From a virus (taxonomy: Duplodnaviria > Heunggongvirae > Uroviricota > Caudoviricetes): a DNA stretch of 10,740 nt. Made by a program: the position numbers and the translations under genes. The stretch is from the IMG/VR virus record IMGVR_UViG_2579779116_000010, positions 1 through 10,740 of that record. One strand, written 5' to 3'. Below the pieces are notes generated by a model. It was given only the letters and a program-made list of their open reading frames with translations. It was not told the DNA's origin and did no database searches. The first letter of the stretch is position 1, and each line of letters begins with the position of its first letter. Positions 1 to 10,255 of the stretch are shown here, in pieces.

Positions 1-332
1 TCCCCGCCCCATTCGATGGCAGTTCCCAGCTCTGCGGCAGCCTGCTTAAATGCCTGCGCGATTTTCTCGTACAGAGGCCAGTCCCATGACACCTGGCTGC
101 CAACCCAGGCCACAACATCCACCGCATCACCGGTCAGGTGGCGGCTGTTCATGGTCTGGCTCTTGCCTTCTGCAACCAGCTGTTTCTGGCGTTCTTTCGT
201 GCGCAGGCCTTCCGTAATACCGAAATCAACCTCCGTCAGCTCCAGCGCACGGCGAACGACAGCAACCAGCTGTGGTTTAACGCCCTCCAGATTTTTCTCG
301 CTCCGACGACTGAATCTGAATTTACCCGACAT
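1..332 (-). CDS. Endolysin, peptidase M15 family (L-Ala-D-Glu / VanY-type peptidase), 5' part only; continues beyond the window start
   Basis: Minus-strand ORF with ATG at 330-332 and SD GAGGTG about 5 nt upstream, open to the window edge (so absent from the ORF track). Translation MSGKFRFSRRSEKNLEGVKPQLVAVVRRALELTEVDFGITEGLRTKERQKQLVAEGKSQTMNSRHLTGDAVDVVAW... contains the S-x-H-x3-D-x2-D zinc-site signature typical of M15 peptidases. It directly follows two membrane-protein genes. Confidence 0.7.
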   Translation of the reverse strand, partial: MSGKFRFSRRSEKNLEGVKPQLVAVVRRALELTEVDFGITEGLRTKERQKQLVAEGKSQTMNSRHLTGDAVDVVAWVGSQVSWDWPLYEKIAQAFKQAAAELGTAIEWGG

Positions 333-334
333 AT

Positions 335-610
335 TCACCTCAACAATGGAAAGATTTTTGTGACGTTCCCGCGTGCGCGTATCACCAGCACGCAGAACAG
401 CAGATTAAAAAACACTTCCAGCCAGCCCGTTGCTAACGGGCGACCACACAGATAGCTGAGGGGCGCAAAGGCATACAGCAGCATCAGCAGCCAGGCCAGC
501 CATGACATCAGCGGTTTGTGCGTGGCATCTTTTCGGCGATAAAAAAAGAACGTCAGCACGATAACCGTGCATAACGCCACATTCAGCAATCCGGGAAGGT
601 TACTTAACAT
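335..610 (-). CDS. Small membrane protein of the lysis cassette (putative holin or antiholin), 91 aa
   Basis: ORF-track ORF 335..610. ATG at 608-610 preceded by GGAGG about 7 nt upstream. Two to three hydrophobic helices (LPGLLNVALCTVIVLTFFFY, WLAWLLMLLYAFAPLSYL, WLEVFFNLLFCVLVI). Its start overlaps the stop of the upstream membrane-protein gene and its stop lies 2 nt before the endolysin start. Family not recognised. Confidence 0.5.
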   Translation of the reverse strand: MLSNLPGLLNVALCTVIVLTFFFYRRKDATHKPLMSWLAWLLMLLYAFAPLSYLCGRPLATGWLEVFFNLLFCVLVIRARGNVTKIFPLLR

Positions 611-992
611 TGCCGCCTCCTCCGCCCCTCAGGCGGGAGAACAGGCCGGACACCAGTGATGCGATATCCTGCTGGTGGATGAATGACAGAATCTTCACTG
701 ACACCACCGATACCAGCACCGCACACAGCGCATCTGCCGATGTACCGTCATACCCTGTTTTTGATGTAATCCAGGCTGACAGTACACGTGCTCCCAGCAC
801 GCCGACGATAAACGACACCAGAAAATGCGCCGCCACACGCCAGGCGGAAATCTTCTGCGGCACAGTTGCCACAAACAAAGCCCCCGCGAACGCACCAAAC
901 ACAATCCCGAAATCCGTTCCGGTGAACAGCCCGAATACCGTCGCCCCTCCGAGCGCAGCCGCCGTGCCGGAACCGGATAAGGGTTCAGACAT
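600..992 (-). CDS. Gly/Ala-rich multi-helix membrane protein, putative holin, 130 aa
   Basis: Part of ORF-track ORF 600..1064, re-started at the internal ATG 990-992 (MSEPLSGSG...) because it has AGGAG 8 nt upstream and a minus-strand terminator at 1012-1033 lies inside the longer ORF. Gly/Ala-rich transmembrane segments (GGATVFGLFTGTDFGIVFGAFAGALFVA, AHFLVSFIVGVLGARVLSAWI, ALCAVLVSVVSVKILSFI). First gene of the lysis cassette. Confidence 0.5.
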   Translation of the reverse strand: MSEPLSGSGTAAALGGATVFGLFTGTDFGIVFGAFAGALFVATVPQKISAWRVAAHFLVSFIVGVLGARVLSAWITSKTGYDGTSADALCAVLVSVVSVKILSFIHQQDIASLVSGLFSRLRGGGGGNVK

Positions 993-1011
993 ACTTTTTT
1001 CTCCTGTAAAT

Positions 1012-1033
1012 AAAAAAGGGCCACCAGCGGCCC
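1012..1033 (-). terminator. Intrinsic terminator-like hairpin immediately upstream of the holin-like gene
   Basis: Plus strand aaaaaa GGGCC accagc GGCCC (1012-1033). On the minus strand this reads as a 5-bp GC stem followed by T6. Confidence 0.4.
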
Positions 1034-1161
1034 GTAAAAAACACCCCGTCAAAAGCACCGGCATCCGCAGATGCCCTTTGCGTGGCGTTATTTGATGCGC
1101 GCCAGATGTGGCGCAAAGAAATGAAATAAGACTTATCGGAAATTAAGGTTAATTTGAGGAT

Positions 1162-1189
1162 TTGAACCACTTATGAAGCTTAGTAGAAT
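1162..1189 (+). promoter_or_regulatory. Candidate sigma-70 promoter (TTGAAC-N16-TAGAAT) for a plus-strand small transcript
   Basis: TTGAAC at 1162-1167, 16-nt spacer, TAGAAT at 1184-1189. Lies about 120-150 nt upstream of the plus-strand terminator at 1311-1343. No ORF with an RBS follows. Confidence 0.3.
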
Positions 1190-1195
1190 GAACAT

Positions 1196-1343
1196 GTCCC
1201 CGGAAGGGGCCAATACTTATTATTCTTCATGGACTTTGTCCCGCGGTCTTAATCCGACGACCACGCTACTTTTCACCCTCTCGCAAATTGCTATCTAAAG
1301 AACGTTGTCCCACGAGTATTCCTGGATGCTCGTGTCTTTTTTT
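1196..1343 (+). ncRNA. Candidate small RNA (about 150 nt) between promoter-like element and intrinsic terminator
   Basis: Predicted transcript from about 1196 to the terminator at 1311-1343. Has a 5'-proximal GC hairpin (CCCCGGAAGGGG, about 1197-1210). The only internal ORF (34 codons) lacks an SD. Identified from signals only, not homology. Confidence 0.25.
1311..1343 (+). terminator. Intrinsic terminator, plus strand
   Basis: CACGAG (1311-1316), 12-nt loop, CTCGTG (1329-1334), then TCTTTTTTT (1335-1343). Confidence 0.45.
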
Positions 1344-1356
1344 GTCCTGAGAAAGG

Positions 1357-1385
1357 AATAAAAAAAACCGCCAGATATGGCGGTT
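1357..1385 (-). terminator. Strong intrinsic terminator, minus strand
   Basis: Minus strand reads AACCGCCA-tatc-TGGCGGTT followed by a run of about 9 T (plus-strand A-run 1357-1367, stem 1366-1385). Convergent with the plus-strand terminator 12 nt away. Confidence 0.6.
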
Positions 1386-2319
1386 GGTCAATGCAAGGGA
1401 TGAATTTTTTAATTGTTATTAAACCGAGGCGCCGGGTGCCTCCCGAAGTATTCCGTGCTGTATGGATACTGTGGTTTCCCGCTAAACCGACTCTATAAAC
1501 CACCCTCGCGCTGAGGAACGCCCCAATTCATGTTTTTCAACACAGAGAAGCGCATCACTGGTTACTCAACGCTAAATCCGGCTTCCTGTCGTGGGCAATG
1601 CGCCATTTCTGTGTCATAAAAAAATACAGCACTGAATCCGTAACCGATCTCCATTACAGAATGAGGCCCAACAAAGGAATTAACGAGATCTGTTCCTCAC
1701 AAAAAACGCCAGTGCTGTAAAAACTCATCAAAGAACAATGAATGTGCGGAGAACAGGAATCGAACCAGTATCACTAACCTAAAAGGCTGAAGTAATAGCC
1801 ACTGTACGATACCTGTATATAGAGCGGGCCTCCGTAACCACAGTAATGATACTATAACAATATGATTAAACGGATGCCAGCAATGACCCGCGAGGCAGCT
1901 GGTCATGCGCCAGCGAACACAGACTCGCTGCCTTTTGGGTCGGGAGTAATATTACCGATAAATCATATGACATCAAAAAATAATTGGTTTTAAGATTTTA
2001 ATATGTGTATAAATATGTATCAGATAAATACAAATTATTTTATTTCATCCAGAATTCTGATTTTACGCAAGAGATTGCTAAAAAATAACACAAACATGAT
2101 CGGTTTGGGAACAAACCAATTCCGTTGTCGCAATAAATAACAGGAAATACTCCGGGCACAACGGAGCGCAAGAATTACATCAGCAGTGGTTTTTGTAACG
2201 TTTAACGTTAATTGTATCGTTGATAGAAAAGCTTTGACGCAATATAGTGAACTAACAGGGCCTGACGAATAGCCCTATTACGCCGAGCTAATAGCGCTGC
2301 CAGCTAAACTTGCATGGAA

Positions 2320-2396
2320 TGGTCCGCCACCGAGGACTCGAACCTCGCACCATCAACTTAGAAGGTTGATGCTCTATCCCGATGAGCTAGTGGCGG
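2320..2396 (-). tRNA. tRNA-Arg, anticodon UCU (reads AGA), 77 nt with encoded CCA
   Basis: Reverse complement CCGCCAC-TA-GCTC-ATCGGGATA-GAGC-A-TCAAC-CTTCTAA-GTTGA-TGGTG-CGAGG-TTCGAGT-CCTCG-GTGGCGG-A-CCA folds as a cloverleaf: 7-bp acceptor stem, D stem GCTC/GAGC, anticodon loop CU-UCU-AA, T loop TTCGAGT. Resembles E. coli argU and the argN-type tRNA of lambdoid/Stx phages. Confidence 0.85.
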
Positions 2397-2397
2397 T

Positions 2398-2473
2398 TGG
2401 TGGCCCTTGCTGGATTTGAACCAGCGACCTGGCGATTATGAGTCGCTCGCTCTCACCACTGAGCTAAAGGGCC
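2398..2473 (-). tRNA. tRNA-Ile2 (anticodon CAU, lysidine type; formally Met-like), 76 nt with encoded CCA
   Basis: Reverse complement GGCCCTTTAGCTCAGTGGTGAGAGCGAGCGACTCATAATCGCCAGGTCGCTGGTTCAAATCCAGCAAGGGCCACCA. Cloverleaf with anticodon loop CT-CAT-AA. Very close to my recollection of E. coli ileX/ileY; corresponds to ileZ of lambdoid phages. Separated from tRNA-Arg by 1 nt. Confidence 0.85.
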
Positions 2474-2590
2474 GGGCGCAGGATAATAACGTTACAAAAT
2501 CAATGTTGCAAGCATTCAAAAATCACCTGGTTAAAAATCCCCCTTACTTCCTCCACCAGCGCATTCACCATGTCTATCCGAGATAAGTGG

Positions 2591-2630
2591 CACAAAAAAC
2601 CCGCATTTGGGCGGGTTTTGTTTGCTTTTG
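2591..2630. terminator. Bidirectional intrinsic terminator; on the minus strand the tR'-like terminator of the late leader
   Basis: AACCCGC (2598-2604), loop atttgg, GCGGGTT (2611-2617). T-rich tract follows on the plus strand (2618-2630) and an A-run precedes it (2591-2598), which reads as T-run on the minus strand. Confidence 0.6.
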
Positions 2631-2670
2631 CCATCACGTACAAAATCGGCAAAATATCAGATTTGCATGA

Positions 2671-2699
2671 AATATATGCCTTTCAATCTACTTTTGCAA
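2671..2699 (-). promoter_or_regulatory. pR'-like late promoter (TTGCAA-N17-TATATT) overlapping the 3' end of the Q-like gene
   Basis: Minus strand -35 TTGCAA (plus 2694-2699), 17-nt spacer, -10 TATATT (plus 2671-2676). Predicted start near 2664, about 70 nt upstream of the tR'-like terminator. This matches the lambda Q/pR'/tR' arrangement. Confidence 0.45.
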
Positions 2700-3372
2700 C
2701 ACTTTGCTTTGAAAATGCCGCCTTTTGTTTTGAACGCGTTCTCATTACAAACAATAAAGCCCCACTATCCAGTCGGTAAAAAATGTGTTTCATTGCAACC
2801 CAGTGACGAGTAAATGTTTTGGACCAGTTTTTAGTTGTCACTCCCGCCAGTAATGCCAGCTCCTGGTATTCATAACCTTCCCCACCAAAAAGTTCTGCTT
2901 TTACTGCCTGCGCCGCCAGCCAGATTAATTTTTTCAGGCGTTCCTGCGTTTTCCCTGCAATTTTTCTGGTACCGGATTGAGTATTAAATTCATTCCACGC
3001 CCACTGTGTTATCGCGATCTGATATTCCCAACAAATACTCCCGCTGTAACACCACAACAACCAGGCTTTATGATGTTCTTCAAGAGACAGAACAGCCCGC
3101 CGCCACGATGATGTCGAAAACTCAACCGGACTGACCAGAGGAATTGACGTCCCCTTCGCCAGCGATTGTTTCCCCGGGATTGGTGGATTATCCCGCGTAA
3201 TCATTTTTCCGGTCACTTCATCTCGGTACCGGATTTTTTTACGCCTGTAACGCCCTGTATCAAACATGGCATTCTCCTGCCAGGCTTCAAGCTGACCTTT
3301 TGTTGCCCCACTCAAATCAGCGGTGGCGATAATGAGCTGCTCACGCACAAACTGTAAATACTGGTTATTCAT
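2683..3372 (-). CDS. Putative late-gene antiterminator (Q-like), 229 aa
   Basis: ORF-track ORF 2683..3378, trimmed to the ATG at 3370-3372, which overlaps the rusA stop as ATGA. Assigned by position only: directly downstream of rusA and directly upstream of the pR'/tR' module and phage tRNAs. I could not confirm family membership from the sequence. Confidence 0.5.
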   Translation of the reverse strand: MNNQYLQFVREQLIIATADLSGATKGQLEAWQENAMFDTGRYRRKKIRYRDEVTGKMITRDNPPIPGKQSLAKGTSIPLVSPVEFSTSSWRRAVLSLEEHHKAWLLWCYSGSICWEYQIAITQWAWNEFNTQSGTRKIAGKTQERLKKLIWLAAQAVKAELFGGEGYEYQELALLAGVTTKNWSKTFTRHWVAMKHIFYRLDSGALLFVMRTRSKQKAAFSKQSVAKVD

Positions 3373-3734
3373 GCGCACTCCAGTTCTGTGATTTTTATCC
3401 CCAGCCGCCCACCAGGAACGAGCTGACCGCGCACAATATTGATTTCATCAAACTGCTCGTCGTCTATAAGTAGTCCGGCATGCGTCAGCGCATCCAGTGG
3501 TGCCTTCAGGATATTGTCCAGGTCGCGGCGGCGCTTATCCGGTGGCTCCGCAATAATCTTTATCGCCAGCCTTCCGGACAGGTTTAATTTCAACCGCTGC
3601 TGGCGAACAATAAGCGCCACATCACGGCGATAACGCTCACCGGCTTTTGATACAAAATATGTGCTGCCACGACGTCGCCAGTAAGTGTTCACCGTTGGCG
3701 GGTAAGGCAAAACAAATTCTATGCGTTCAGTCAT
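3369..3734 (-). CDS. rusA: Holliday-junction resolvase RusA (crossover junction endodeoxyribonuclease), 121 aa
   Basis: ORF-track ORF 3369..3734. MTERIEFVLPYPPTVNTYWRRRGSTYFVSKAGERYRRDVA...PDKRRRDLDNILKAPLDALTHAGLLIDDEQ...GGRLGIKITE aligns motif by motif with E. coli RusA as I recall it (LPxPPSxNxYY, PDRRRRDLDN, DALT, DD, GGRL, ITE), including the catalytic Asp cluster. Confidence 0.85.
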   Translation of the reverse strand: MTERIEFVLPYPPTVNTYWRRRGSTYFVSKAGERYRRDVALIVRQQRLKLNLSGRLAIKIIAEPPDKRRRDLDNILKAPLDALTHAGLLIDDEQFDEINIVRGQLVPGGRLGIKITELECA

Positions 3735-4793
3735 TCATGCTTTCCACTTCAGGACACCCGAATTTCTCGCGTGCATTAAAAAACGAATCAGCAACAACAG
3801 CTGGCTGCCGTGTTTTTCTTCAAAATCTTTTACCCCGGCGTGCAGTTCGTTATGACATTTACGGCACAGCGGAATAACAAACAAATCATCAGCCTTTGTT
3901 CCCATCCCTCCCAGTCCATGACCAATGATGTGATGCGGATCATCTGCCTGATTACCGCACGTCATGCATTTCTGCGTTTTTACCCAGCGCGTGTATACAG
4001 GCATCTCTTCCCGTTGTGGTTTCTGGCGCTGGAGATACTGAGTCGGTGACTCCGGATCAACAGCAATGCTGACCACCGTCTTTTCCTGTGGCGGGTTCTG
4101 TTGCTGGTGGGCGTGAGGCAGCGGCGCAAGATTTTTTGTGCGCTGTTTCAGTATGCTGGTGGCGGTCTGCTCTCCCGGTACGATGTCGCTTTCACGGTAC
4201 ATTGAGCGGATTTTTTCCGCACGCAACCCCAGCGAACGACGTAATACCACTTCCGGTAGCGCGTCCGCCACCTGATTGCGGACCGCCCACCAGGATAATT
4301 CAGCCAGAGATAATTCACGCTCCTGCGTACCGCTTATTGCGTGACCGATGACGTCAATCATCCATGCTGACAGGTTTTGATGAGCAAGTTGCTCGAGTGA
4401 TTCGGATGTCTGGTCACGCAGCTGGTTGTCGCAGTGCCAGCACAACACCATTGCGCCGGTACCATAACGGTGAATAACGGTTTCGCTGTGATGATAATCG
4501 CCGTGTGGCCACTGGCAGGATTTAACATGACGCAGGAGCCAGTCAGACAGTGCACCAGCGCCGCCGGCAGCACGAATCACCCGCTCATCGCTGAAAAATG
4601 GCAGCAGAGATTTGTCTTCTGCCAGCGGCTGGCGAACGGCAGGAACGACCCCGGACGGCAGACCGCGCATGCTTTTTGGCTCCGGTTCAACCAGCACTCT
4701 GCCGTTATGGAATACCTGCATGGATTCACGACCTGGCTTAAGGACCACCAGCCCGAGTTCCGGTACCGGAACAGGTCGAAGTAATACGCGCAC
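3735..4793 (-). CDS. ydfU: DUF968-type protein with C-terminal HNH-like zinc-finger motif (YdfU-like), 352 aa, GTG start
   Basis: ORF-track ORF 3735..4793. GTG start with GGAG 5 nt upstream. C-terminus CMTCGNQADDPHHIIGHGLGG...IPLCRKCHNELH has a CxxC...HH...CxxCH pattern. The size and its position between a small ORF and the nin/Q region match my recollection of Qin ydfU; the gene symbol is by synteny only. Confidence 0.6.
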   Translation of the reverse strand: MRVLLRPVPVPELGLVVLKPGRESMQVFHNGRVLVEPEPKSMRGLPSGVVPAVRQPLAEDKSLLPFFSDERVIRAAGGAGALSDWLLRHVKSCQWPHGDYHHSETVIHRYGTGAMVLCWHCDNQLRDQTSESLEQLAHQNLSAWMIDVIGHAISGTQERELSLAELSWWAVRNQVADALPEVVLRRSLGLRAEKIRSMYRESDIVPGEQTATSILKQRTKNLAPLPHAHQQQNPPQEKTVVSIAVDPESPTQYLQRQKPQREEMPVYTRWVKTQKCMTCGNQADDPHHIIGHGLGGMGTKADDLFVIPLCRKCHNELHAGVKDFEEKHGSQLLLLIRFLMHARNSGVLKWKA

Positions 4794-4794
4794 G

Positions 4795-5067
4795 TTATCT
4801 CCAGATTCGTTGCTGGAATGTGCGGGACGGGCGTGGTGGGCGTTCGGAATAAGGGAGCCTGACGTAGATTATCCAGTGACGATAATCGAGGCTGAGAGCT
4901 TTCCTAAACTCATACCCACGTCTGCGGTAGTTATGAATCAGCCATTCGGCCTGTTCTTCAGTGCAGGGGTCATGCTGGTACCAGTCACATTTGAATGTGT
5001 GAGGGCGCCGCCCGTGCCCGCTGGCAAGGTCGGTATCAGAATTGTGATGTTTGGTATTGTGCGCCAT
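4795..5067 (-). CDS. Hypothetical protein, about 90 aa, in the position that rem occupies in Qin
   Basis: ORF-track ORF 4795..5148 uses a TTG start that lies inside the terminator at 5138-5165, so I shortened it to the first ATG (5065-5067, MAHNTKHH...). SD is weak (AGAGA). The stop abuts the GTG start of the DUF968 gene. No recognisable motif. Confidence 0.35.
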   Translation of the reverse strand: MAHNTKHHNSDTDLASGHGRRPHTFKCDWYQHDPCTEEQAEWLIHNYRRRGYEFRKALSLDYRHWIIYVRLPYSERPPRPSRTFQQRIWR

Positions 5068-5137
5068 CGGTTGTCTCTGCTGGCGCAGCAGGTGCCAGTT
5101 GTTCAGGCTGGCATGCGTATTGTAAACCAGAATGCCA

Positions 5138-5165
5138 GAAAAAAACAAAACCCGCCGAAGCGGGT
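5138..5165 (-). terminator. Intrinsic terminator downstream of the lipoprotein gene
   Basis: Minus strand reads ACCCGC-TTCG-GCGGG-TTTTGTTTTTTT (plus 5139-5165): 5-bp GC stem, UUCG tetraloop, T-rich tail. Confidence 0.6.
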
Positions 5166-5294
5166 ATGCTAAAACAAACTGAAGGTAATATGCCGGACTT
5201 GTAAAGGAACGATAGAATAATTATCGGATTAAATCCTGACTCAATCCATAGGGTTTACAGCGTTTTCACTAATAATTTACCGTCCCGCTATACA

Positions 5295-5687
5295 TTACTG
5301 CCCTGTTTTAACGAAGTTTTTAAAGGAAACAACTGCCTGATAGGGGTTTGGTTGACAGCCAAACATATTGTCGCAAAAAGGCTTGATGAAAATTCTTGAG
5401 GATCCATCTTCATTTGGCATTTTACTCACTTGATAAGCGAGGAATGGACTATTTGGAGAGGGATTATAAGTGGAAATTAGCGTGTCTGTCGCCGTTTGAA
5501 TTTTCCATGAGGAATTATTAGCCAACCAGAATTGCGCTCGTTTCCAATAAAAGTCACATTGCTTTTCATCATTACATGTTAGTGGCTTCATTGCTTCTGC
5601 TTTCAACGCTGGATCGACCTTTGCTGCACACCCTCCCAACATTACTGTTGCAATCATTACACCTGCGACTAAAACAAGTTTCTTCAT
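5295..5687 (-). CDS. Lipoprotein, 130 aa (signal peptide with lipobox LGG-C, mature part with four further Cys); moron-like
   Basis: ORF-track ORF 5295..5687. MKKLVLVAGVMIATVMLGGC... is a classic type II signal peptide with lipobox. Visibly more AT-rich than the flanking genes. Bracketed by terminator-like hairpins at 5745-5765 and 5138-5165. No family recognised. Confidence 0.7.
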   Translation of the reverse strand: MKKLVLVAGVMIATVMLGGCAAKVDPALKAEAMKPLTCNDEKQCDFYWKRAQFWLANNSSWKIQTATDTLISTYNPSPNSPFLAYQVSKMPNEDGSSRIFIKPFCDNMFGCQPNPYQAVVSFKNFVKTGQ

Positions 5688-5744
5688 CTCCCTGCCCCAT
5701 CAATAAAAGTTCGGTTCTCTAATAACTAGAGTTAATCAACGGAA

Positions 5745-5830: not shown

Positions 5831-5986
5831 TTACTCCTCAGGTTCGTAAGCTGTGAAGACAGCGACCTCCGTCTGGCCGGTTCGGATTCGTACCTCGCAG
5901 AGGTCTTTCCTCGTTACCAGTGCCGTCACTATGACGGTTAAACAGATGACGATCAGGGCGATTAACATCGCCTTTTGCTGCTTCAT
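5831..5986 (-). CDS. hokD: Hok-family type I toxin HokD (RelF), 51 aa
   Basis: Not in the ORF track (under 60 aa). Reverse complement of 5831-5986 translates to MKQQKAMLIALIVICLTVIVTALVTRKDLCEVRIRTGQTEVAVFTAYEPEE, which matches my recollection of K-12 HokD. It lies directly downstream of relE, as in the relBEF operon. Confidence 0.85.
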   Translation of the reverse strand: MKQQKAMLIALIVICLTVIVTALVTRKDLCEVRIRTGQTEVAVFTAYEPEE

Positions 5987-6057
5987 AGCCTGCTTCTCCT
6001 GTCAACGCAAAGCAGAAGTGTCACCTTCGGTGCGAAACAGAGATGTCATGCTTTGGT

Positions 6058-6345
6058 TCAGAGAATGCGTTTGACCGCCTCGCTATATACTTCCGAGCGT
6101 TCTCTTTTCCCAACAGAAATCACGAAAACGACAACTTTCTCGTCTATAACCTGGTATACAAGGCGATAGCCTGAAGACCGGAGCTTAATCTTGTAACAAT
6201 CAGGCATACCACGGAGCTTGTTTGCTTCAATCCGGGGTGACTCAAGTACTTCAACCAGCTTCTTTTTCAACTGTTCACGTACCGTCGAGCCCAGCTTTCG
6301 CCATTCCTTTAGTGCCCGCTCGTCAAAATCCAGAAAATACGCCAT
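6058..6345 (-). CDS. relE: RelE mRNA-interferase toxin, 95 aa
   Basis: ORF-track ORF 6058..6345. MAYFLDFDERALKEWRKLGSTVREQLKKKLVEVLESPRIEANKLRGMPDCYKIKLRSSGYRLVYQVIDEKVVVFVISVGKRERSEVYSEAVKRIL is essentially the K-12 RelE sequence as I recall it. Its start overlaps the relB stop (TGATG). Confidence 0.92.
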   Translation of the reverse strand: MAYFLDFDERALKEWRKLGSTVREQLKKKLVEVLESPRIEANKLRGMPDCYKIKLRSSGYRLVYQVIDEKVVVFVISVGKRERSEVYSEAVKRIL

Positions 6346-6584
6346 CAGAGTTCATCCAGCGTCACACGTACTGGCTTAGGATTACGAAGCCGTTCTTTCA
6401 CTATCTCCACAAGTTCAGCATCTTCATCACTCAGGAGTGTCTGTTTGAACGGCAAGCGTTCATTGTCAGCGATATACTCGAGCATGAGACGAAGCGCTTC
6501 AGAAGGAGTTACACCCATTTTTTCAAGCGCGGCGTAAGAACGCGCTTTAAGTTCATCGTCAATACGCAGGTTAATGCTACCCAT
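6345..6584 (-). CDS. relB: RelB antitoxin, 79 aa
   Basis: ORF-track ORF 6345..6584. MGSINLRIDDELKARSYAALEKMGVTPSEALRLMLEYIADNERLPFKQTLLSDEDAELVEIVKERLRNPKPVRVTLDEL matches my recollection of K-12 RelB, with a ribbon-helix-helix N-terminus. Confidence 0.92.
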   Translation of the reverse strand: MGSINLRIDDELKARSYAALEKMGVTPSEALRLMLEYIADNERLPFKQTLLSDEDAELVEIVKERLRNPKPVRVTLDEL

Positions 6585-6596
6585 GTCTTACACCTC

Positions 6597-6648
6597 TTGT
6601 AATTACAAATGTCATTACAAGTATCGCACTACAACATGCTTAGGGCAA
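6597..6648 (-). promoter_or_regulatory. relBE promoter with relO operator (hexad repeats)
   Basis: Minus strand -35 TTGCCC (plus 6643-6648), 17-nt spacer, -10 GATACT (plus 6620-6625). Downstream lies TTGTAATGACATTTGTAATTACAAG (plus 6597-6621), containing TTGTAA/TTACAA-type hexads as described for the RelB operator. Confidence 0.7.
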
Positions 6649-6914
6649 GTCACGAAGGAAGTCAGAAAGTAGTCGTAAGAACGGTGATCACTGTCCGCTT
6701 TGTGCCAGGAGCAGCCATTGCTAAGTCCATCCTGTATTGTGCAGGTCAGCTCGTTTTTAAAGAGTCCGGCCATCATCTTACTGGTACAGACACCATATAC
6801 TTTGTGACGGTCAGGCTACATATGCACAACTCAACTTATTCATCTATTTTTTGCTTTAGCATGTCAGTGTTGCTTTCTCGTCGGCGGGTGAGCGGTGACC
6901 TGACCTGTCGATAA
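6609..6914 (+). CDS. ydfV: Doubtful ORF, 101 aa, in the position and size of K-12 ydfV
   Basis: ORF-track ORF 6609..6914. Same length as I recall for YdfV, between relB and flxA. It starts inside the relBE promoter/operator, has no convincing SD, and its composition is not protein-like (MSLQVSHYNMLRASHEGSQ...). Listed for completeness. Confidence 0.2.
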   Translation: MSLQVSHYNMLRASHEGSQKVVVRTVITVRFVPGAAIAKSILYCAGQLVFKESGHHLTGTDTIYFVTVRLHMHNSTYSSIFCFSMSVLLSRRRVSGDLTCR

Positions 6915-7066
6915 AGGAACGTAACACGTTTTATGCAACACCCGCATGCGGCAGAAAATTATTGCCGAACGTTTACCCCTGTCAACAAGCTTTACTTTCT
7001 GAGGCGCGCCAGCCCGCGAGGAAAACAATCTGAACATCAAACAATTAATGACACAAGAAATACGAT

Positions 7067-7093
7067 TAAAGATTTTTTTGTGCATGCCGATAG
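7067..7093 (+). promoter_or_regulatory. Sigma-28 (FliA) class 3 promoter of flxA
   Basis: TAAAGATT (7067-7074), 11-nt spacer, GCCGATAG (7086-7093), versus the consensus TAAAGTTT-N11-GCCGATAA. SD AAGGAG at 7105-7110, ATG at 7117. Confidence 0.75.
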
Positions 7094-7116
7094 TGCTTTT
7101 TTAAAAGGAGAAATCT

Positions 7117-7449
7117 ATGTCTGTCACAATTCAGGGAAATACCTCAACCGTTATTTCAAACAACTCCGCCCCGGAAGGAACATCAGAAATAGCCAAAATC
7201 ACAAGACAAATTCAGGTGCTGACTGAAAAGCTTGGGAAAATCTCATCGGAAGAGGGGATGACGACACAGCAGAAAAAAGAAATGGCTGCATTGGTACAGA
7301 AGCAAATTGAAAGCCTCTGGGCTCAACTGGAGCAGTTGTTAAGGCAGCAGGCAGAGAAAAAGAATGAAGACGCGACAGTTCAGCCTGATAAAAAAGAAGA
7401 GAAAAAAGACGATACAAATACCGCTGGCACCATTGATATTTACGTCTAA
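7117..7449 (+). CDS. flxA: FlxA, FliA-regulated protein of unknown function, 110 aa
   Basis: ORF-track ORF 7117..7449. Strong SD. Coiled-coil-like, Lys/Glu/Gln-rich sequence (MSVTIQGNTSTVISNNSAPEGTSEIAKITRQIQVLTEKLGK...). Position next to relB and the sigma-28 promoter match K-12 flxA as I recall it. Confidence 0.85.
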   Translation: MSVTIQGNTSTVISNNSAPEGTSEIAKITRQIQVLTEKLGKISSEEGMTTQQKKEMAALVQKQIESLWAQLEQLLRQQAEKKNEDATVQPDKKEEKKDDTNTAGTIDIYV

Positions 7450-7463
7450 GTGACAGCCGTATT

Positions 7464-7490
7464 GTGGCCCTCATCGGGCCACTTTTCGCC
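7464..7490 (+). terminator. Intrinsic terminator of flxA
   Basis: GTGGCCC (7464-7470), loop tcatc, GGGCCAC (7476-7482), then TTTT. Starts 15 nt after the flxA stop. Confidence 0.6.
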
Positions 7491-7759
7491 ATCAGCCTTT
7501 TCTTTAAAGACATATTATCTTTGTATCATTTCTGATAGTTAACATTACAAGATATAAGTAATGGACGCACTCCCAATTAGTCTATTTAAATCGCCACGAG
7601 TTTAACTGACAACCCATGATCAATTATGAATTGCAACTATTTCTGTAGTCACTTTTGTGGGGACAGTCCACAAAACTGCCAACTTCCGCTTCTTGCTCTT
7701 AGCGGACATTAGCATAGGCTATTTACCATAACGCCTCATTACGCGCACCGCCCAGACTG

Positions 7760-9270
7760 ACTCAGCGCGTTTCTGGCATATCCCCGGTAAAACAAGTAAC
7801 AAACCACCCGAAAATGAACACCAGAAACGCGACTTAAGAATCTACCCTATGAATGGATATGCACTCAACCGAATCGATCTTGGTTTCAATCTTTTTTATC
7901 GGGATCAGGCTTCTTTTTAGGTAACTTCGGGGGCTTAACTTGCTGATGACTTTGCGTTCGGCGCGTAAGCCAGGGATGGTCAGCTTTAGGTTTAACATAG
8001 TATTTTGAGCGTAAATCAATACGGGCATTATCCACTCGTTCATGGACACTCTTTTCATCATCCGGTGGTATAGGCTCCGGGCCATCAACATACTTTTCCC
8101 AGCCCAGCGCTTTCCCGTCATACAGAACGTTAATTTCACCGTCAAAGTTCTCGCATACAGTAACAACCGAATGCCTAAGTCGATATCCCCGGCCCTCACT
8201 GCGTACCTGAAACGCACTGCTTTTGTACTGGAAAGTGAGATTTTTAGACAGAACGCGCTTCGCCTGTAGGCTGAAGATATAACCCAGTTCCTCTTCAGAA
8301 TGGTGCACATCAAGATGAGCATTATCAGTAGTACGAGGCGACGTAGCGAACCGGTTGTTATAGGCTTCAATAAAGGTCGGCAACCATGCATTTGCTGTTT
8401 CAATATCACTGATATTCTGAAGCCGCATTTCTTTGACCAGCCTGTCCTGTAGTGTCTGATTGGCGCGCTCTACCCGCCCTTTTGCCTGCGGGCTGTTGGC
8501 ATGGATTGGCTCGATGCCCAGTGTCTTTATCGCACGAGTGAACTGGGTCAGCTCACCTTCCCGCTCTGGGTTATTTACCCTGAATATACTGTGTCTATCA
8601 GAGTAGAGAGCGAGCGGTACGCCATGATCATTAAGGTAACCCCGGAGGGTTTCCATGTAAGCCCGGGTTGTTTCAGCAGGCACAAAACGCAACGCCATCA
8701 ACGCACTGGTGGCATCATCAATGAAAACGATCAGTGTACATCTGGGGCCTCGATTTTCAAACCAGTCATGAGGTGAGCCATCAATCTGGATCAGTTCACC
8801 GTAAGATGGTCGTCGCATGCGGCGTTGATATATACGGGCAATTTTACGACGGCGTTCACGCCATAACCCCTCTTCTATCATCCACTTTCTGAGAGTTTCA
8901 ACGGATAAAGATAAACCGTGTATCTCGCGCAATTTTTCGCACGCAAACGTAGGTCCAAAATCAGCGTAACGGCCTTTGAGGAGTGAAATTACTGTTGCTC
9001 TGAATTCAGTAGAAAAGGAATTATTAGGACGCTTTCCACGTCGGTGGGAAACCAGACCAGAAGGCCCTTCATTTCTATACCGTTGCACCAGACGTTTAAC
9101 CTGCCGAATAGAAATGCCAATGCGTGCCGCAGCTTGTTCCTGAATAATCTGAAGTCGGTGGAGTTCCTTATGACTCATCGTAACAGTCTCTTTGATCATG
9201 AAAAATCCCCCAGAGAATTGTCTGGGGACATTTTAGAATGGTTCAAAGGGGACATTACAGCTTGGTGTTA
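7760..9270 (-). mobile_element. Insertion sequence carrying the DDE transposase; boundaries approximate
   Basis: Transposase gene plus flanking repeat-rich DNA: an 11-bp perfect inverted repeat CGCGTTTCTGG / CCAGAAACGCG at 7766-7776 and 7821-7831, and two GGGGACATT direct repeats at 9224-9232 and 9249-9257. I could not identify matching terminal inverted repeats or a target-site duplication. Confidence 0.3.
7886..9199 (-). CDS. DDE transposase (rve / integrase-core type, N-terminal HTH), 437 aa; IS481- or ISNCY-like, family not resolved
   Basis: ORF-track ORF 7886..9199. N-terminal HTH-like region (SHKELHRLQIIQEQAAARIGISIRQVKRLVQRY). Catalytic triad candidates are D in LIQIDGSPHDW, D in ALYSDRHSIF and E in GRVERANQTLQDR with basic residues after the E. 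Single long ORF with SD GGGGGA. Confidence 0.8.
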   Translation of the reverse strand: MIKETVTMSHKELHRLQIIQEQAAARIGISIRQVKRLVQRYRNEGPSGLVSHRRGKRPNNSFSTEFRATVISLLKGRYADFGPTFACEKLREIHGLSLSVETLRKWMIEEGLWRERRRKIARIYQRRMRRPSYGELIQIDGSPHDWFENRGPRCTLIVFIDDATSALMALRFVPAETTRAYMETLRGYLNDHGVPLALYSDRHSIFRVNNPEREGELTQFTRAIKTLGIEPIHANSPQAKGRVERANQTLQDRLVKEMRLQNISDIETANAWLPTFIEAYNNRFATSPRTTDNAHLDVHHSEEELGYIFSLQAKRVLSKNLTFQYKSSAFQVRSEGRGYRLRHSVVTVCENFDGEINVLYDGKALGWEKYVDGPEPIPPDDEKSVHERVDNARIDLRSKYYVKPKADHPWLTRRTQSHQQVKPPKLPKKKPDPDKKD

Positions 9271-9533
9271 ACAATAGCCTGCTTCTCCGTGCCTTTCGGC
9301 ACGTAAGAGGCTAACCTACATGTGTCTAGCATGAAATTGGCCTCAGATTAATGTTAAGCGTCTTGCAGGACGCGTAATGTTAACTGGGGCTTTTCTCTAT
9401 CTGCCGTTGGTGTCCATGCCCGAGGCAGATAGCCTCAAGCACCCGCAGTCATTCTACTTAACTAAGATTTCCCCGCAAACCGTTTTTGTCCAGCACAGTA
9501 AATATCCAACTAAACCAATGGAGTTCGCTGTAT

Positions 9534-9713
9534 TTACCGCCAGTATTCAATGCACATGACCGCCATGAACACCCCTAAAAAAAGGGCATTTATATATCCA
9601 AATATTAATATCAAAACATCAACTTTTTCCATATACCTTGCTGTGAAGATGATGGGCATACATGATGCGAACAACCAGAACGCAACAAACAAAAACTGCA
9701 ATGCGTTTTTCAT
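9534..9713 (-). CDS. Small two-helix membrane protein, 59 aa
   Basis: Part of ORF-track ORF 9534..9752, re-started at the internal ATG 9711-9713 because AGGAGG lies 4 nt upstream (GTAGGAGGAATA-ATG). MKNALQFLFVAFWLFASCMPIIFTARYMEKVDVLILIFGYINALFLGVFMAVMCIEYWR has two hydrophobic helices. Embedded in an AT-rich island. No family recognised. Confidence 0.45.
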   Translation of the reverse strand: MKNALQFLFVAFWLFASCMPIIFTARYMEKVDVLILIFGYINALFLGVFMAVMCIEYWR

Positions 9714-9967
9714 TATTCCTCCTACAATCAATGTGCAATTACATTTAAACACACCTCAATTTGGCCGGACATATAAATATCTAAACCAGAAAAAATCACT
9801 TACATAGCGTTACAAACTCTTTAGTCTAAAGGTTCATCGTAAAACATTCCCCATACTTATCAGTCCGTTCCGCGCCAGGTAGCTCATTGCCTTATCTGGC
9901 AACCTGTAATCAGGTTTCCGCTTTTTCAGTTGGCTGGTCGTTTAACCGACATAGTTAATCCATTAAT

Positions 9968-10255
9968 CTAGTTGCCGGATGTTGGTGGATTTTCGCGTTT
10001 TAGTTGTTCATAAAAGTGCACAGCTTTAACCAGTTCTTCTGATGTAACTGGGACTGGTGAGGCAGTGAATAAGGCCTGAATTTGATAGTTCGGCCTGTCG
10101 TTACAATCCTCTTTTTTCGGTACATATTTCCAGTCACCAGACCACTACTTCCCCTGAAAGTCCGTAACGCCTTTTTTCACGTAGCGATATCGCCATGCCA
10201 CTGGTTTTGCTTGCCCCGCCGTTTCATGCCCTTCCTGATAATTAATCTCGCTCAT
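9968..10255 (-). pseudogene. 95-codon gene interrupted by an in-frame TAG at codon 37 (36-aa ORF, then a 58-codon open continuation)
   Basis: ATG at 10253-10255 overlaps the upstream stop as ATGA. MSEINYQEGHETAGQAKPVAWRYRYVKKGVTDFQGK-TAG-WSGDWKYVPKKEDCNDRPNYQIQALFTASPVPVTSEELVKAVHFYEQLKRENPPTSGN-TAG. The TAG is at plus 10145-10147. Confidence 0.35.

What the first reader, a model, noticed from the sequence alone, without database searches (positions are those of the whole stretch)
9534..9830. Small two-helix membrane protein with a near-perfect SD in an AT-rich island next to the IS
The 59-aa ORF has AGGAGG 4 nt before its ATG and two hydrophobic helices. It sits in a markedly AT-rich tract (about 9590-9800) with no partner gene. 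Small prophage membrane proteins of this kind are often toxic or exclusion factors (Kil-like, type I toxin-like, Imm-like). I cannot match it to a known family. Its position beside the transposase also raises the possibility that it is IS cargo.
Basis: partly seen in the sequence, partly recalled or inferred. Interest (0 to 1): 0.45.

Follow-up and report, generated by a model that had tools for sequence, protein, structure and literature searches.

The report
Unannotated prophage small membrane protein gene
The 59-codon reading frame is very probably a real but uncharacterised gene for a tiny two-helix membrane protein, carried on a short insert in a Qin-type E. coli prophage just upstream of a hok/sok killer locus, and it is not cargo of the neighbouring insertion sequence.

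Summary
The minus strand has ATG at 9713-9711 and TAA at 9536-9534, giving 59 codons. AGGAGG lies 4 nt before the ATG, two hydrophobic helices are predicted, and GC is 36%.

The window is a Qin-like lambdoid prophage of E. coli. The frame is intact in 113 of 116 independently sampled prophage contigs. A second lineage (41% identity, same length, no indels) sits in a prophage remnant between ttcA and uspF in B2 strains. Between the two lineages dN/dS is about 0.19, and a neutral simulation gives p of about 4e-4. This shows protein-coding constraint. The antisense ORF that phage annotators called 'hornerin' is not conserved.

No Pfam, NCBIfam, PHROG or PADLOC family matches. PGAP left the ORF unannotated in every RefSeq record inspected. 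The family consists of these two Escherichia/Shigella lineages only.

The gene lies on a roughly 340-bp cassette (9492-9833). Related phages have a 75-bp stretch with a 27-codon ORF at that position. The cassette sits directly upstream of a hok/sok locus. In this window a 3,274-bp block (ISNCY transposase, flxA, ydfV, relBE) has split hok/sok at the hok start codon.

IS cargo is refuted. No antisense RNA or structured leader was found. Translation and function are untested.

The parts
9534..9713 (-). 59-codon ORF (ATG 9713-9711, TAA 9536-9534) encoding a predicted two-helix inner-membrane hairpin protein, lineage A
   Evidence: Intact in 113/116 unbiased prophage loci. Homologous to lineage B with dN/dS about 0.19 and no indel.
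9718..9723 (-). Shine-Dalgarno AGGAGG, 4 nt before the ATG. About half of the haplotypes carry AGGGGG instead.
9492..9833 (-). AT-rich cassette of about 340 bp (leader plus ORF plus short tail), present or absent as a unit between the upstream nin-region gene and the hok promoter
   Evidence: Related prophages keep both flanks (window 9938-9834 and 9491-9290) but have only 75 bp between them, encoding a 27-aa ORF. GC values.
9819..9831 (-). Palindrome CTTTAG-A-CTAAAG just after the stop of the upstream gene. Lineage B has CTTCAG-T-CTGAAG at the same place, so both arms changed together.
   Evidence: Meaning unknown. It may be a relic of the 5' end of the 27-codon ORF.
9834..9836 (-). Stop codon (TGA) of the upstream nin-region gene, which is a pseudogene in this prophage type
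   Evidence: PGAP pseudogene at L001 10535-10956, equal to window 9834-10255. Intact homologues.
9550..9807 (+). Antisense 85-codon ORF, called 'hornerin' or hypothetical protein in phage records. Judged spurious.
   Evidence: Two stop codons in the corresponding frame of lineage B and no long antisense ORF there. A 1-nt insertion at 9723 in 2 haplotypes would frameshift it.
9451..9478 (-). Probable hok promoter: TTGCGG, 16 nt, TAGAAT, ending 7 nt before the leader start
   Evidence: Best sense-strand hit of the position-weight promoter scan. Consistent with the model start at 9444.
9273..9444 (-). 5' half of a hok/sok locus (hok mRNA leader with the Sok-complementary region), now separated from its toxin gene
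   Evidence: Rfam RF01794 sok, 104.1 bits (gathering score 59), E = 2.5e-23, full model length
9274..9288 (-). 15-bp direct repeat GGAGAAGCAGGCTAT (hok SD region), upstream copy at the insertion junction
6000..9273 (.). 3,274-bp block inserted at the hok start codon. It holds the ISNCY-family transposase (7886-9199, minus, 437 aa), flxA (7117-7449, plus), ydfV (6609-6914, plus), relB (6345-6584, minus) and relE (6058-6345, minus).
   Evidence: Comparison with phage vB_EcoS-640R1, annotation, Pfam, translations
5985..5999 (-). Downstream copy of the 15-bp repeat. It overlaps the hokD start codon.
5831..5986 (-). hokD coding sequence (51 aa), the toxin half of the split locus

Best explanation
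The ORF is a genuine, evolutionarily maintained gene for a 59-residue inner-membrane protein. The protein forms a helical hairpin. The basic N-terminus (MK / MRK) and the C-terminus are predicted to face the cytoplasm, with a short neutral-to-acidic loop outside. The second helix carries a conserved small-residue ladder, G39-x3-A43-x3-G47, of the kind used for helix-helix packing.

The gene rides on a roughly 340-bp cassette. [quoted passage not shown] It behaves like a phage 'moron': a discrete add-on that some related phages lack.

Shown: the frame, the SD, coding constraint across two lineages, the cassette boundaries, the linkage to hok/sok, and independence from the IS.

Inferred: it is transcribed as part of the rightward early operon, because no convincing promoter of its own was found; it inserts in the cytoplasmic membrane; and it acts there by self-association or by binding a host membrane protein. 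The most plausible role is that of an accessory factor such as an entry or exclusion block, or a membrane-perturbing factor during lytic growth. That last step is a guess, which I put at about 0.25.
For: Frame and SD. An SD-preceded ORF of this length occurs in 0.17% of shuffles.

Unbiased sample: 116 prophage contigs were fetched through a flank pattern rather than through the ORF. Of these, 113 have the intact 59-aa frame. The three most divergent complete-genome copies I inspected are also intact and keep a G-rich SD.

Lineage B: 59 aa, same start and stop, 25/59 identical residues, tblastn E = 3e-10, phmmer E = 1.2e-8 against 1.84 billion proteins.

Codon-position identity between A and B is 34, 42 and 28 of 59 for positions 1, 2 and 3. 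Fisher p for position 2 against position 3 is 0.014. NG86 gives dN 0.45 and dS 2.33.

Neutral simulation with the same 73 substitutions: no premature stop in 1.8% of runs, at least 25 identical residues in 0.6%, both in 0.04%.

The ORF aligns without gaps, while the homologous upstream DNA needs several indels.

Hairpin model.

Cassette nature.

Linkage to hok: the hok CDS starts 258-260 nt after the ORF stop in 73/84 loci.
Against: There is no evidence of transcription or translation. The ORF is absent from K-12, and the one Ribo-seq study of a strain that carries lineage B could not be opened.

PGAP did not annotate the ORF in any RefSeq record I inspected.

Within lineage A all 8 segregating substitutions are nonsynonymous and none is synonymous. 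This fits relaxed constraint better than ongoing purifying selection.

Frameshift variants at the T7 run and IS-truncated variants exist in the protein database.

No convincing sigma-70 promoter or terminator belongs to the cassette, so it does not meet the full textbook definition of a moron.

The family is tiny (two lineages, one genus), so the conservation evidence rests on a single deep comparison.
Confidence: 0.7

Rival explanations
1. The ORF is a dead or dying relic. It once coded for a protein, which explains the A/B conservation, but in today's cryptic prophages it is neither expressed nor selected.
For: 8 nonsynonymous and 0 synonymous polymorphisms within lineage A. Frameshift and IS-disrupted alleles exist, and IS1 insertions occur nearby in several genomes. 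The upstream nin genes in this prophage type are pseudogenes, which would favour polarity on a read-through transcript. No promoter of its own was found. Lineage B lies in a heavily decayed remnant.
Against: 97% of unbiased copies are intact. Polymorphism density is lower in the ORF (8/180) than in its own leader (about 11/82) and in the flanks. The SD stays G-rich in both variants. It is also present in recoverable phages such as PhiR42_1 and vB_EcoS-640R1.
Confidence: 0.15
2. It is the toxin of a new type I toxin-antitoxin pair, held in check by an antisense RNA transcribed from the plus strand.
For: It is a small hydrophobic protein in a prophage, beside another type I system. Weak antisense promoter-like sites lie inside the ORF: TTGCTG, 17 nt, CATGAT at 9638-9666. 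A plus-strand terminator-like hairpin lies at 9901-9916.
Against: Rfam finds nothing over 9534-9830. The antisense promoter candidates score no better than background and lie at different ORF positions in lineages A and B. The terminator-like hairpin lies outside the block shared by all carriers. The leader folds no better than shuffles, z = 0.23, unlike the highly structured type I toxin mRNAs. The SD is strong and unpaired. Two transmembrane helices is atypical for enterobacterial type I toxins (my own knowledge of the Hok, Ldr, Ibs, TisB, ShoB, DinQ and ZorO families).
Confidence: 0.06
3. It works together with the adjacent hok/sok locus, for example by modulating Hok action or by influencing hok leader folding through read-through transcription and translation.
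For: The spacing to hok is constant (258-260 nt) in 73/84 loci. There is no terminator between the ORF stop and the hok promoter. Both products are small membrane proteins.
Against: About 104 of the roughly 120 prophage loci with this hok leader type lack the ORF, so hok/sok does not need it. Lineage B has no hok/sok nearby. The Sp5 hokW locus region of O157 Sakai lacks it.
Confidence: 0.07
4. It is passenger cargo of the neighbouring ISNCY element.
For: Proximity only: the transposase ORF ends 335 nt away at 9199.
Against: The hok leader (9273-9444) lies between the ORF and the inserted block. 73/84 loci have the ORF with no IS. The insertion junction maps to 9273/9274, at the hok start codon.
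Confidence: 0.01

Closest known systems
Phage 'morons' that encode small inner-membrane proteins (for example the HK97 gp15 superinfection-exclusion moron; cited from my own knowledge of the literature, not tested here)
   Same: A discrete extra segment between two genes that are adjacent in related lambdoid phages. Lower GC than its surroundings. It encodes a short membrane protein that is not needed for the phage life cycle.
   Different: No sequence or meaningful fold similarity to any characterised example. No own promoter or terminator detected. Expression from the repressed prophage is unknown.
Hok and other enterobacterial type I toxins
   Same: A small hydrophobic product in a prophage, 90 nt from a hok leader.
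   Different: No Pfam hit to Hok or any other family even at E = 10. Two predicted helices instead of one. No antisense RNA or structured leader found.
Class II holins / pinholins (for example S21-68; from my own knowledge)
   Same: Two transmembrane helices, with a small-residue (G/A/S-x3) ladder in the second helix.
   Different: No charged C-terminal tail, since the protein ends IEYWR right after helix 2. It is not in the lysis cassette, which lies at window 335-1064 with its own holin-family genes. No holin family hit.
27-residue hydrophobic ORF (MTWPEALTTVGIAMAVALVVYSICRWG) found at the same genomic position in other lambdoid and Stx phages
   Same: Same slot, between the same upstream gene and the hok promoter. 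Also a small hydrophobic peptide.
   Different: Single helix, and start codon overlapping the upstream stop (ATGA). Only vague similarity to helix 2 of the 59-aa protein (GIAMAVA against GVFMAVM). Weak edge similarity suggests that the cassette interrupted or replaced it; that is inference.

Membership tests
Type I toxin-antitoxin system | Small hydrophobic toxin ORF | tested here: met
   59 aa, two hydrophobic helices
Type I toxin-antitoxin system | Antisense or nearby base-pairing antitoxin RNA | tested here: inconclusive
   No Rfam hit over the ORF. Only weak antisense promoter-like sites, not conserved in position between lineages. Absence cannot be proven without transcript data.
Type I toxin-antitoxin system | Highly structured toxin mRNA that hides the ribosome-binding site | tested here: not met
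   Fold of 9810-9640 gives -35.9 kcal/mol against a shuffle mean of -36.8, z = 0.23
Type I toxin-antitoxin system | Growth arrest or killing on expression | not testable with these tools
   Needs an induction experiment
Hok/Gef protein family | Sequence match to the Hok family profile | tested here: not met
   Pfam scan with E up to 10 returned no family
Phage moron | Discrete segment present or absent between genes that are adjacent in related phages | tested here: met
   Window 9833-9492 is replaced by 75 bp in about 15-20 related loci with the same flanks
Phage moron | Base composition different from the neighbours | tested here: met
   GC 0.36 against 0.45-0.47 in the flanks. Third-position GC is 51%, so part of the skew comes from amino-acid content.
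Phage moron | Own promoter and terminator, with expression from the repressed prophage | tested here: inconclusive
   The consensus scan found no promoter and no sense-strand terminator for the cassette. The weight-matrix scan gave only weak candidates, while it did recover the hok promoter. Expression is not testable here.
Holin (class II / pinholin) | Two transmembrane helices plus a charged cytoplasmic C-terminal tail | tested here: not met
   There are two helices, but the protein ends 1-4 residues after helix 2
Holin (class II / pinholin) | Location in the lysis cassette next to the endolysin | tested here: not met
   Holin-family genes lie at window 335-1064. The ORF is about 8.5 kb away, in the nin region.
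IS passenger gene | Lies within the element and travels with it | tested here: not met
   The insertion junction is at 9273/9274. 73/84 loci carry the ORF without the insert.
Known superinfection-exclusion or anti-phage defence proteins | Match to a curated defence or phage protein family | tested here: not met
   No PADLOC, PHROG, Pfam or NCBIfam hit. Foldseek against viral models has a best E of 0.41.

The most novel reading that the evidence does not exclude
The 59-aa protein is a new kind of prophage-encoded membrane effector. It could be an entry or exclusion block, or a membrane-active factor that cooperates with Hok. It would be evolving under diversifying rather than purifying selection within lineage A (8 amino-acid-changing and 0 silent polymorphisms), and it has been missed by RefSeq annotation in the E. 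coli genomes that carry it: lineage A DNA is in 29% and lineage B DNA in 19% of complete genomes.
Probability: 0.12. Interest if true: 0.6.

Novelty: new member of a known kind. Interest (0 to 1): 0.35.

Why it matters
The DNA of lineage A is found in 1,568 of 5,426 complete E. coli genomes, and that of lineage B in 1,045 of them, including CFT073, ATCC 25922 and ST131. In every RefSeq record I inspected the gene is not annotated. It is a concrete example of a conserved small membrane protein that automated annotation skips. It also offers a cheap target for functional work on what lambdoid prophages add to their hosts. Separately, the analysis shows that in this prophage type the relBE-hokD arrangement known from K-12 arose by insertion of a 3.3-kb block exactly at the hok start codon. 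This left an orphan hok leader and sok region that K-12 has since deleted.

Tried and rejected
1. The first set of related loci kept only the 80 best protein matches out of 184. It is therefore biased towards intact ORFs. I discarded its ORF-against-flank contrast and re-sampled through a flank pattern.

2. L087 (CP178302.1, 53% identity) looked like a divergent homologue. It is instead an assembly full of single-base indels across the whole region, so I ignored it.

3. Foldseek against viral models gave only non-significant helical-hairpin matches.

4. An exhaustive phmmer search and a profile search found no third lineage. The apparent extra hits (P0049-P0055) are truncated lineage-B variants, and P0041 is a repetitive, unrelated protein.

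5. Rfam on the lineage-B locus found nothing relevant.

6. Literature. Searching for the peptide strings found no paper. The hokW paper and the Hok survey preprint do not mention an upstream ORF.

7. A CFT073 Ribo-seq preprint (10.64898/2026.09.28.754932) appears in the search results but could not be opened under either DOI form. I know only its title and the first lines of its abstract. A term search shows that its main text does not contain uspF, ttcA or the coordinate. Its supplements are unseen. I draw no support from it.

8. Inverted-repeat searches did not define the IS ends.

9. The three-way MAFFT alignment misplaced the short L212 sequence. The cassette boundaries therefore rest on BLAST segments and a pairwise alignment.

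Full report
**What is there.** On the minus strand an ATG at 9713-9711 opens a 59-codon frame that ends with TAA at 9536-9534. AGGAGG (9723-9718) lies 4 nt upstream of the ATG. The product is MKNALQFLFVAFWLFASCMPIIFTARYMEKVDVLILIFGYINALFLGVFMAVMCIEYWR. It has two hydrophobic stretches. AlphaFold2 models it as helix 2-24, a short loop, and helix 30-58, with mean pLDDT 71. GC is 0.37 in the ORF and 0.32 in the 92 nt before it, against 0.47 for the window. Third codon positions are 51% GC, so the AT-richness largely reflects T-rich second positions of hydrophobic codons plus an AT-rich leader. An ORF of this length is not rare by chance: it appears in 17% of shuffles of the 401-nt island. With an SD match in front, the figure drops to 0.17%.

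**Where it is.** The window is a Qin-like lambdoid prophage of E. coli. Genes on the minus strand follow the rightward early operon: dicC, replication genes, small nin-type genes, this ORF, then hok, rem, ydfU, rusA, Q, two tRNAs and the lysis genes. K-12 MG1655 has deleted the segment between ydfW and ydfX, so the ORF is absent there. That explains why no K-12 small-protein study could have seen it.

**The neighbourhood is not empty.** Rfam's sok family matches 9444-9273 on the minus strand over its full length: 104 bits against a gathering score of 59, E = 2.5e-23. This is the leader half of a hok/sok locus. A promoter scan places TTGCGG, 16 nt, TAGAAT just upstream of it, at 9478-9451. I compared the window with phage vB_EcoS-640R1. 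Window 9920-9274 continues directly into window 6000-5743 in that phage. The window therefore carries a 3,274-bp block (9273-6000) holding an ISNCY-family transposase, flxA, ydfV and relBE. The block is inserted exactly at the hok start codon and is bracketed by a 15-bp direct repeat, GGAGAAGCAGGCTAT, at 9288-9274 and 5999-5985. The IS thus interrupts hok/sok. It does not carry the ORF.

**Is it IS cargo?** No. Among prophage contigs sampled through a flank pattern, hok starts 258-260 nt after the ORF stop in 73 of the 84 loci where hok could be placed. Only 11 have the large insert.

**Is the frame conserved?** My first sample kept only the best protein matches and was biased towards intact copies, so I re-sampled with a 30-base pattern from the upstream flank. 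Of 116 usable loci, 113 have the intact 59-aa frame. The most divergent complete-genome copies I inspected (97% DNA identity) are also intact and keep a G-rich SD. Within this lineage there are 8 substitution sites in the ORF. All change the amino acid, mostly conservatively: A16V, M28I, V31I, I37M, Y40H, L44I, V52G, M53T. None is silent. Polymorphism density is lower in the ORF (8/180) than in its leader and flanks. These numbers are small and recombination links many of the sites. I read them as compatible with relaxed constraint in recent times, and I flag the complete lack of silent changes as unexplained.

**The decisive evidence is a second lineage.** A translated search of plasmid records, two of which are really chromosome pieces, found a 59-codon ORF with 41% identity. 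Its product is MRKILMYLCISIWIVISCVPIILTSEYLTEASIMALMFGHANALCIGVFISIIYIECWR, with the same length, start and stop. It sits in a decayed prophage remnant (integrase and DUF1627 fragments) between ttcA and uspF. It is found in 1,045 of 5,426 complete genomes, including ATCC 25922, NRG 857C, ST131 and CFT073.
- Between the lineages, identity by codon position is 34, 42 and 28 of 59, and dN/dS is 0.45/2.33.
- Placing the same 73 substitutions at random keeps the frame open in 1.8% of runs. It reaches the observed amino-acid identity with an open frame in 0.04%.
- The ORF aligns without gaps, whereas the homologous upstream DNA needs several indels.
- The antisense frame that phage annotators called ('hornerin') has two stops in lineage B.
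- An in-frame stop lies 18 nt upstream of the lineage-B ATG (read). This shows that the 59-aa form, not the 72-aa GTG-extended form used in many GenBank records, is the conserved product.

**How wide is the family?** An exhaustive phmmer run over 1.84 billion representative proteins and a profile search over 5.8 billion clusters found only these two lineages and their truncated variants. All are from Escherichia or Shigella. There is no Pfam, NCBIfam, PHROG or PADLOC match and no informative fold match. GenBank submitters call it 'hypothetical protein' or 'membrane protein'. PGAP left it unannotated in every RefSeq record I inspected.

**A cassette.** I sampled prophages through the hok leader instead. 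About 104 of roughly 120 loci lack the ORF. In about 15-20 of them both flanks are kept (window 9938-9834 and 9491-9290), but only 75 bp lie between them. That short stretch encodes a 27-residue hydrophobic ORF whose ATG overlaps the upstream stop. This small ORF occurs in 91 phage records. The 59-codon gene with its leader (about 9833-9492) is therefore a discrete add-on, like a moron. Weak similarity at both edges suggests it interrupted or replaced the 27-codon ORF; this is inference. Lineage B shares the same upstream junction, so the event predates the A/B split.

**Mechanism.** No convincing promoter or sense-strand terminator belongs to the cassette. The leader is not unusually structured, z = 0.23. 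I therefore infer transcription with the early rightward operon and efficient initiation at the strong SD. Charges suggest that both termini face the cytoplasm. Conserved positions are W13, S17-C18, P20-I21-I22, T24, F38-G39, N42-A43-L44, G47, E56 and W58-R59. They include a G-x3-A-x3-G ladder in helix 2, which fits helix packing. The role is unknown. An accessory membrane function (exclusion, or membrane perturbation during lytic growth) is the most plausible guess.

**Limits.** I have no expression data. A CFT073 Ribo-seq preprint surfaced in searches but could not be opened. Its main text does not mention this locus by the terms I tried, and its supplements are unseen.

**Verdict.** This is a real, narrowly distributed small membrane protein gene that RefSeq annotation skips, carried on a moron-like cassette next to hok/sok. 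It is not IS cargo, and nothing supports a type I toxin. Interest is modest.

Noticed in passing
window 9273-9444 and 5831-5999, with the block 6000-9273 between them: The hok/sok locus is split. The leader and Sok-complementary half (Rfam sok, 104 bits) is separated from the hokD coding sequence by a 3,274-bp block carrying an ISNCY transposase, flxA, ydfV and relBE. The block is inserted at the hok start codon and flanked by a 15-bp direct repeat. This would explain how the relBE-hokD arrangement arose, and it leaves an orphan leader/sok region that K-12 has deleted.
   Followed up: partly
L212 about 2290-2375 (and L235, L243, L271); the equivalent slot in the window is 9492-9833: Related lambdoid and Stx phages have, in place of the cassette, a 27-codon hydrophobic ORF (MTWPEALTTVGIAMAVALVVYSICRWG). 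Its ATG overlaps the stop of the upstream gene (ATGA). It is found in 91 phage records, sometimes annotated as a hypothetical protein and sometimes not annotated. No PHROG match.
   Followed up: partly
window 9534-9713, compared across L088-L205: Within lineage A all 8 segregating substitutions are nonsynonymous and none is synonymous. Yet the ORF is about three times less polymorphic than its own leader and flanks. Relaxed constraint, diversifying selection and recombination history cannot be told apart with these numbers.
   Followed up: partly
window 9572-9586 (CCCTTTTTTTAGGGG on the minus strand): A T7 run inside the ORF. The protein database holds 55-aa variants ending FFRGVHGGHVH that correspond to T8 (clusters with 24, 11, 19 and 3 members), mostly from Logan assemblies. 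Whether these are real alleles or sequencing errors is unknown.
   Followed up: no
window 9819-9831; L207 about 4877-4889: A 13-bp palindrome CTTTAG-A-CTAAAG lies right after the upstream gene's stop. Lineage B has CTTCAG-T-CTGAAG at the matching place, so both arms changed together. It could be a protein-binding site, a weak hairpin or coincidence.
   Followed up: no
window 7886-9199 (minus): The ISNCY-family transposase ORF is intact here at 437 aa (HTH and rve_3 domains). In ATCC 8739 PGAP marks it as a truncated pseudogene. The K-12 'protein YdfW' corresponds to its last 49 codons in the same frame.
   Followed up: partly
window 9550-9807 (plus); L002 and L003 5907-6158: Phage GenBank records annotate the antisense ORF ('hornerin' or hypothetical protein) instead of the 59-codon gene. 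That antisense frame is not conserved in lineage B.
   Followed up: yes
window 2320-2473 (minus) and 2594-2667: tRNA-Arg(TCT) and tRNA-Met(CAT) genes lie just downstream of the Q antiterminator gene (2683-3378). Sub-threshold Rfam matches to isrK and isrJ sit between Q and the tRNAs.
   Followed up: no
window 1-5743 compared with L001: Only window 5743-10728 matches ATCC 8739 Qin at 99%. The late-regulation and lysis part (Q, rusA, DUF968, holins) is a different mosaic module, with 82% identity over 3841-5084 and none elsewhere.
   Followed up: no
L087 (CP178302.1): This genome-collection representative shows many single-base indels across the whole locus. It looks like an error-rich assembly, and its 53% 'homologue' is an artefact.
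   Followed up: partly
literature tools: The preprint 10.64898/2026.09.28.754932 is indexed by the search tool, although its date is after the library's stated cut-off. It cannot be opened by the reading tool. Only its title and the start of its abstract were seen.
   Followed up: partly
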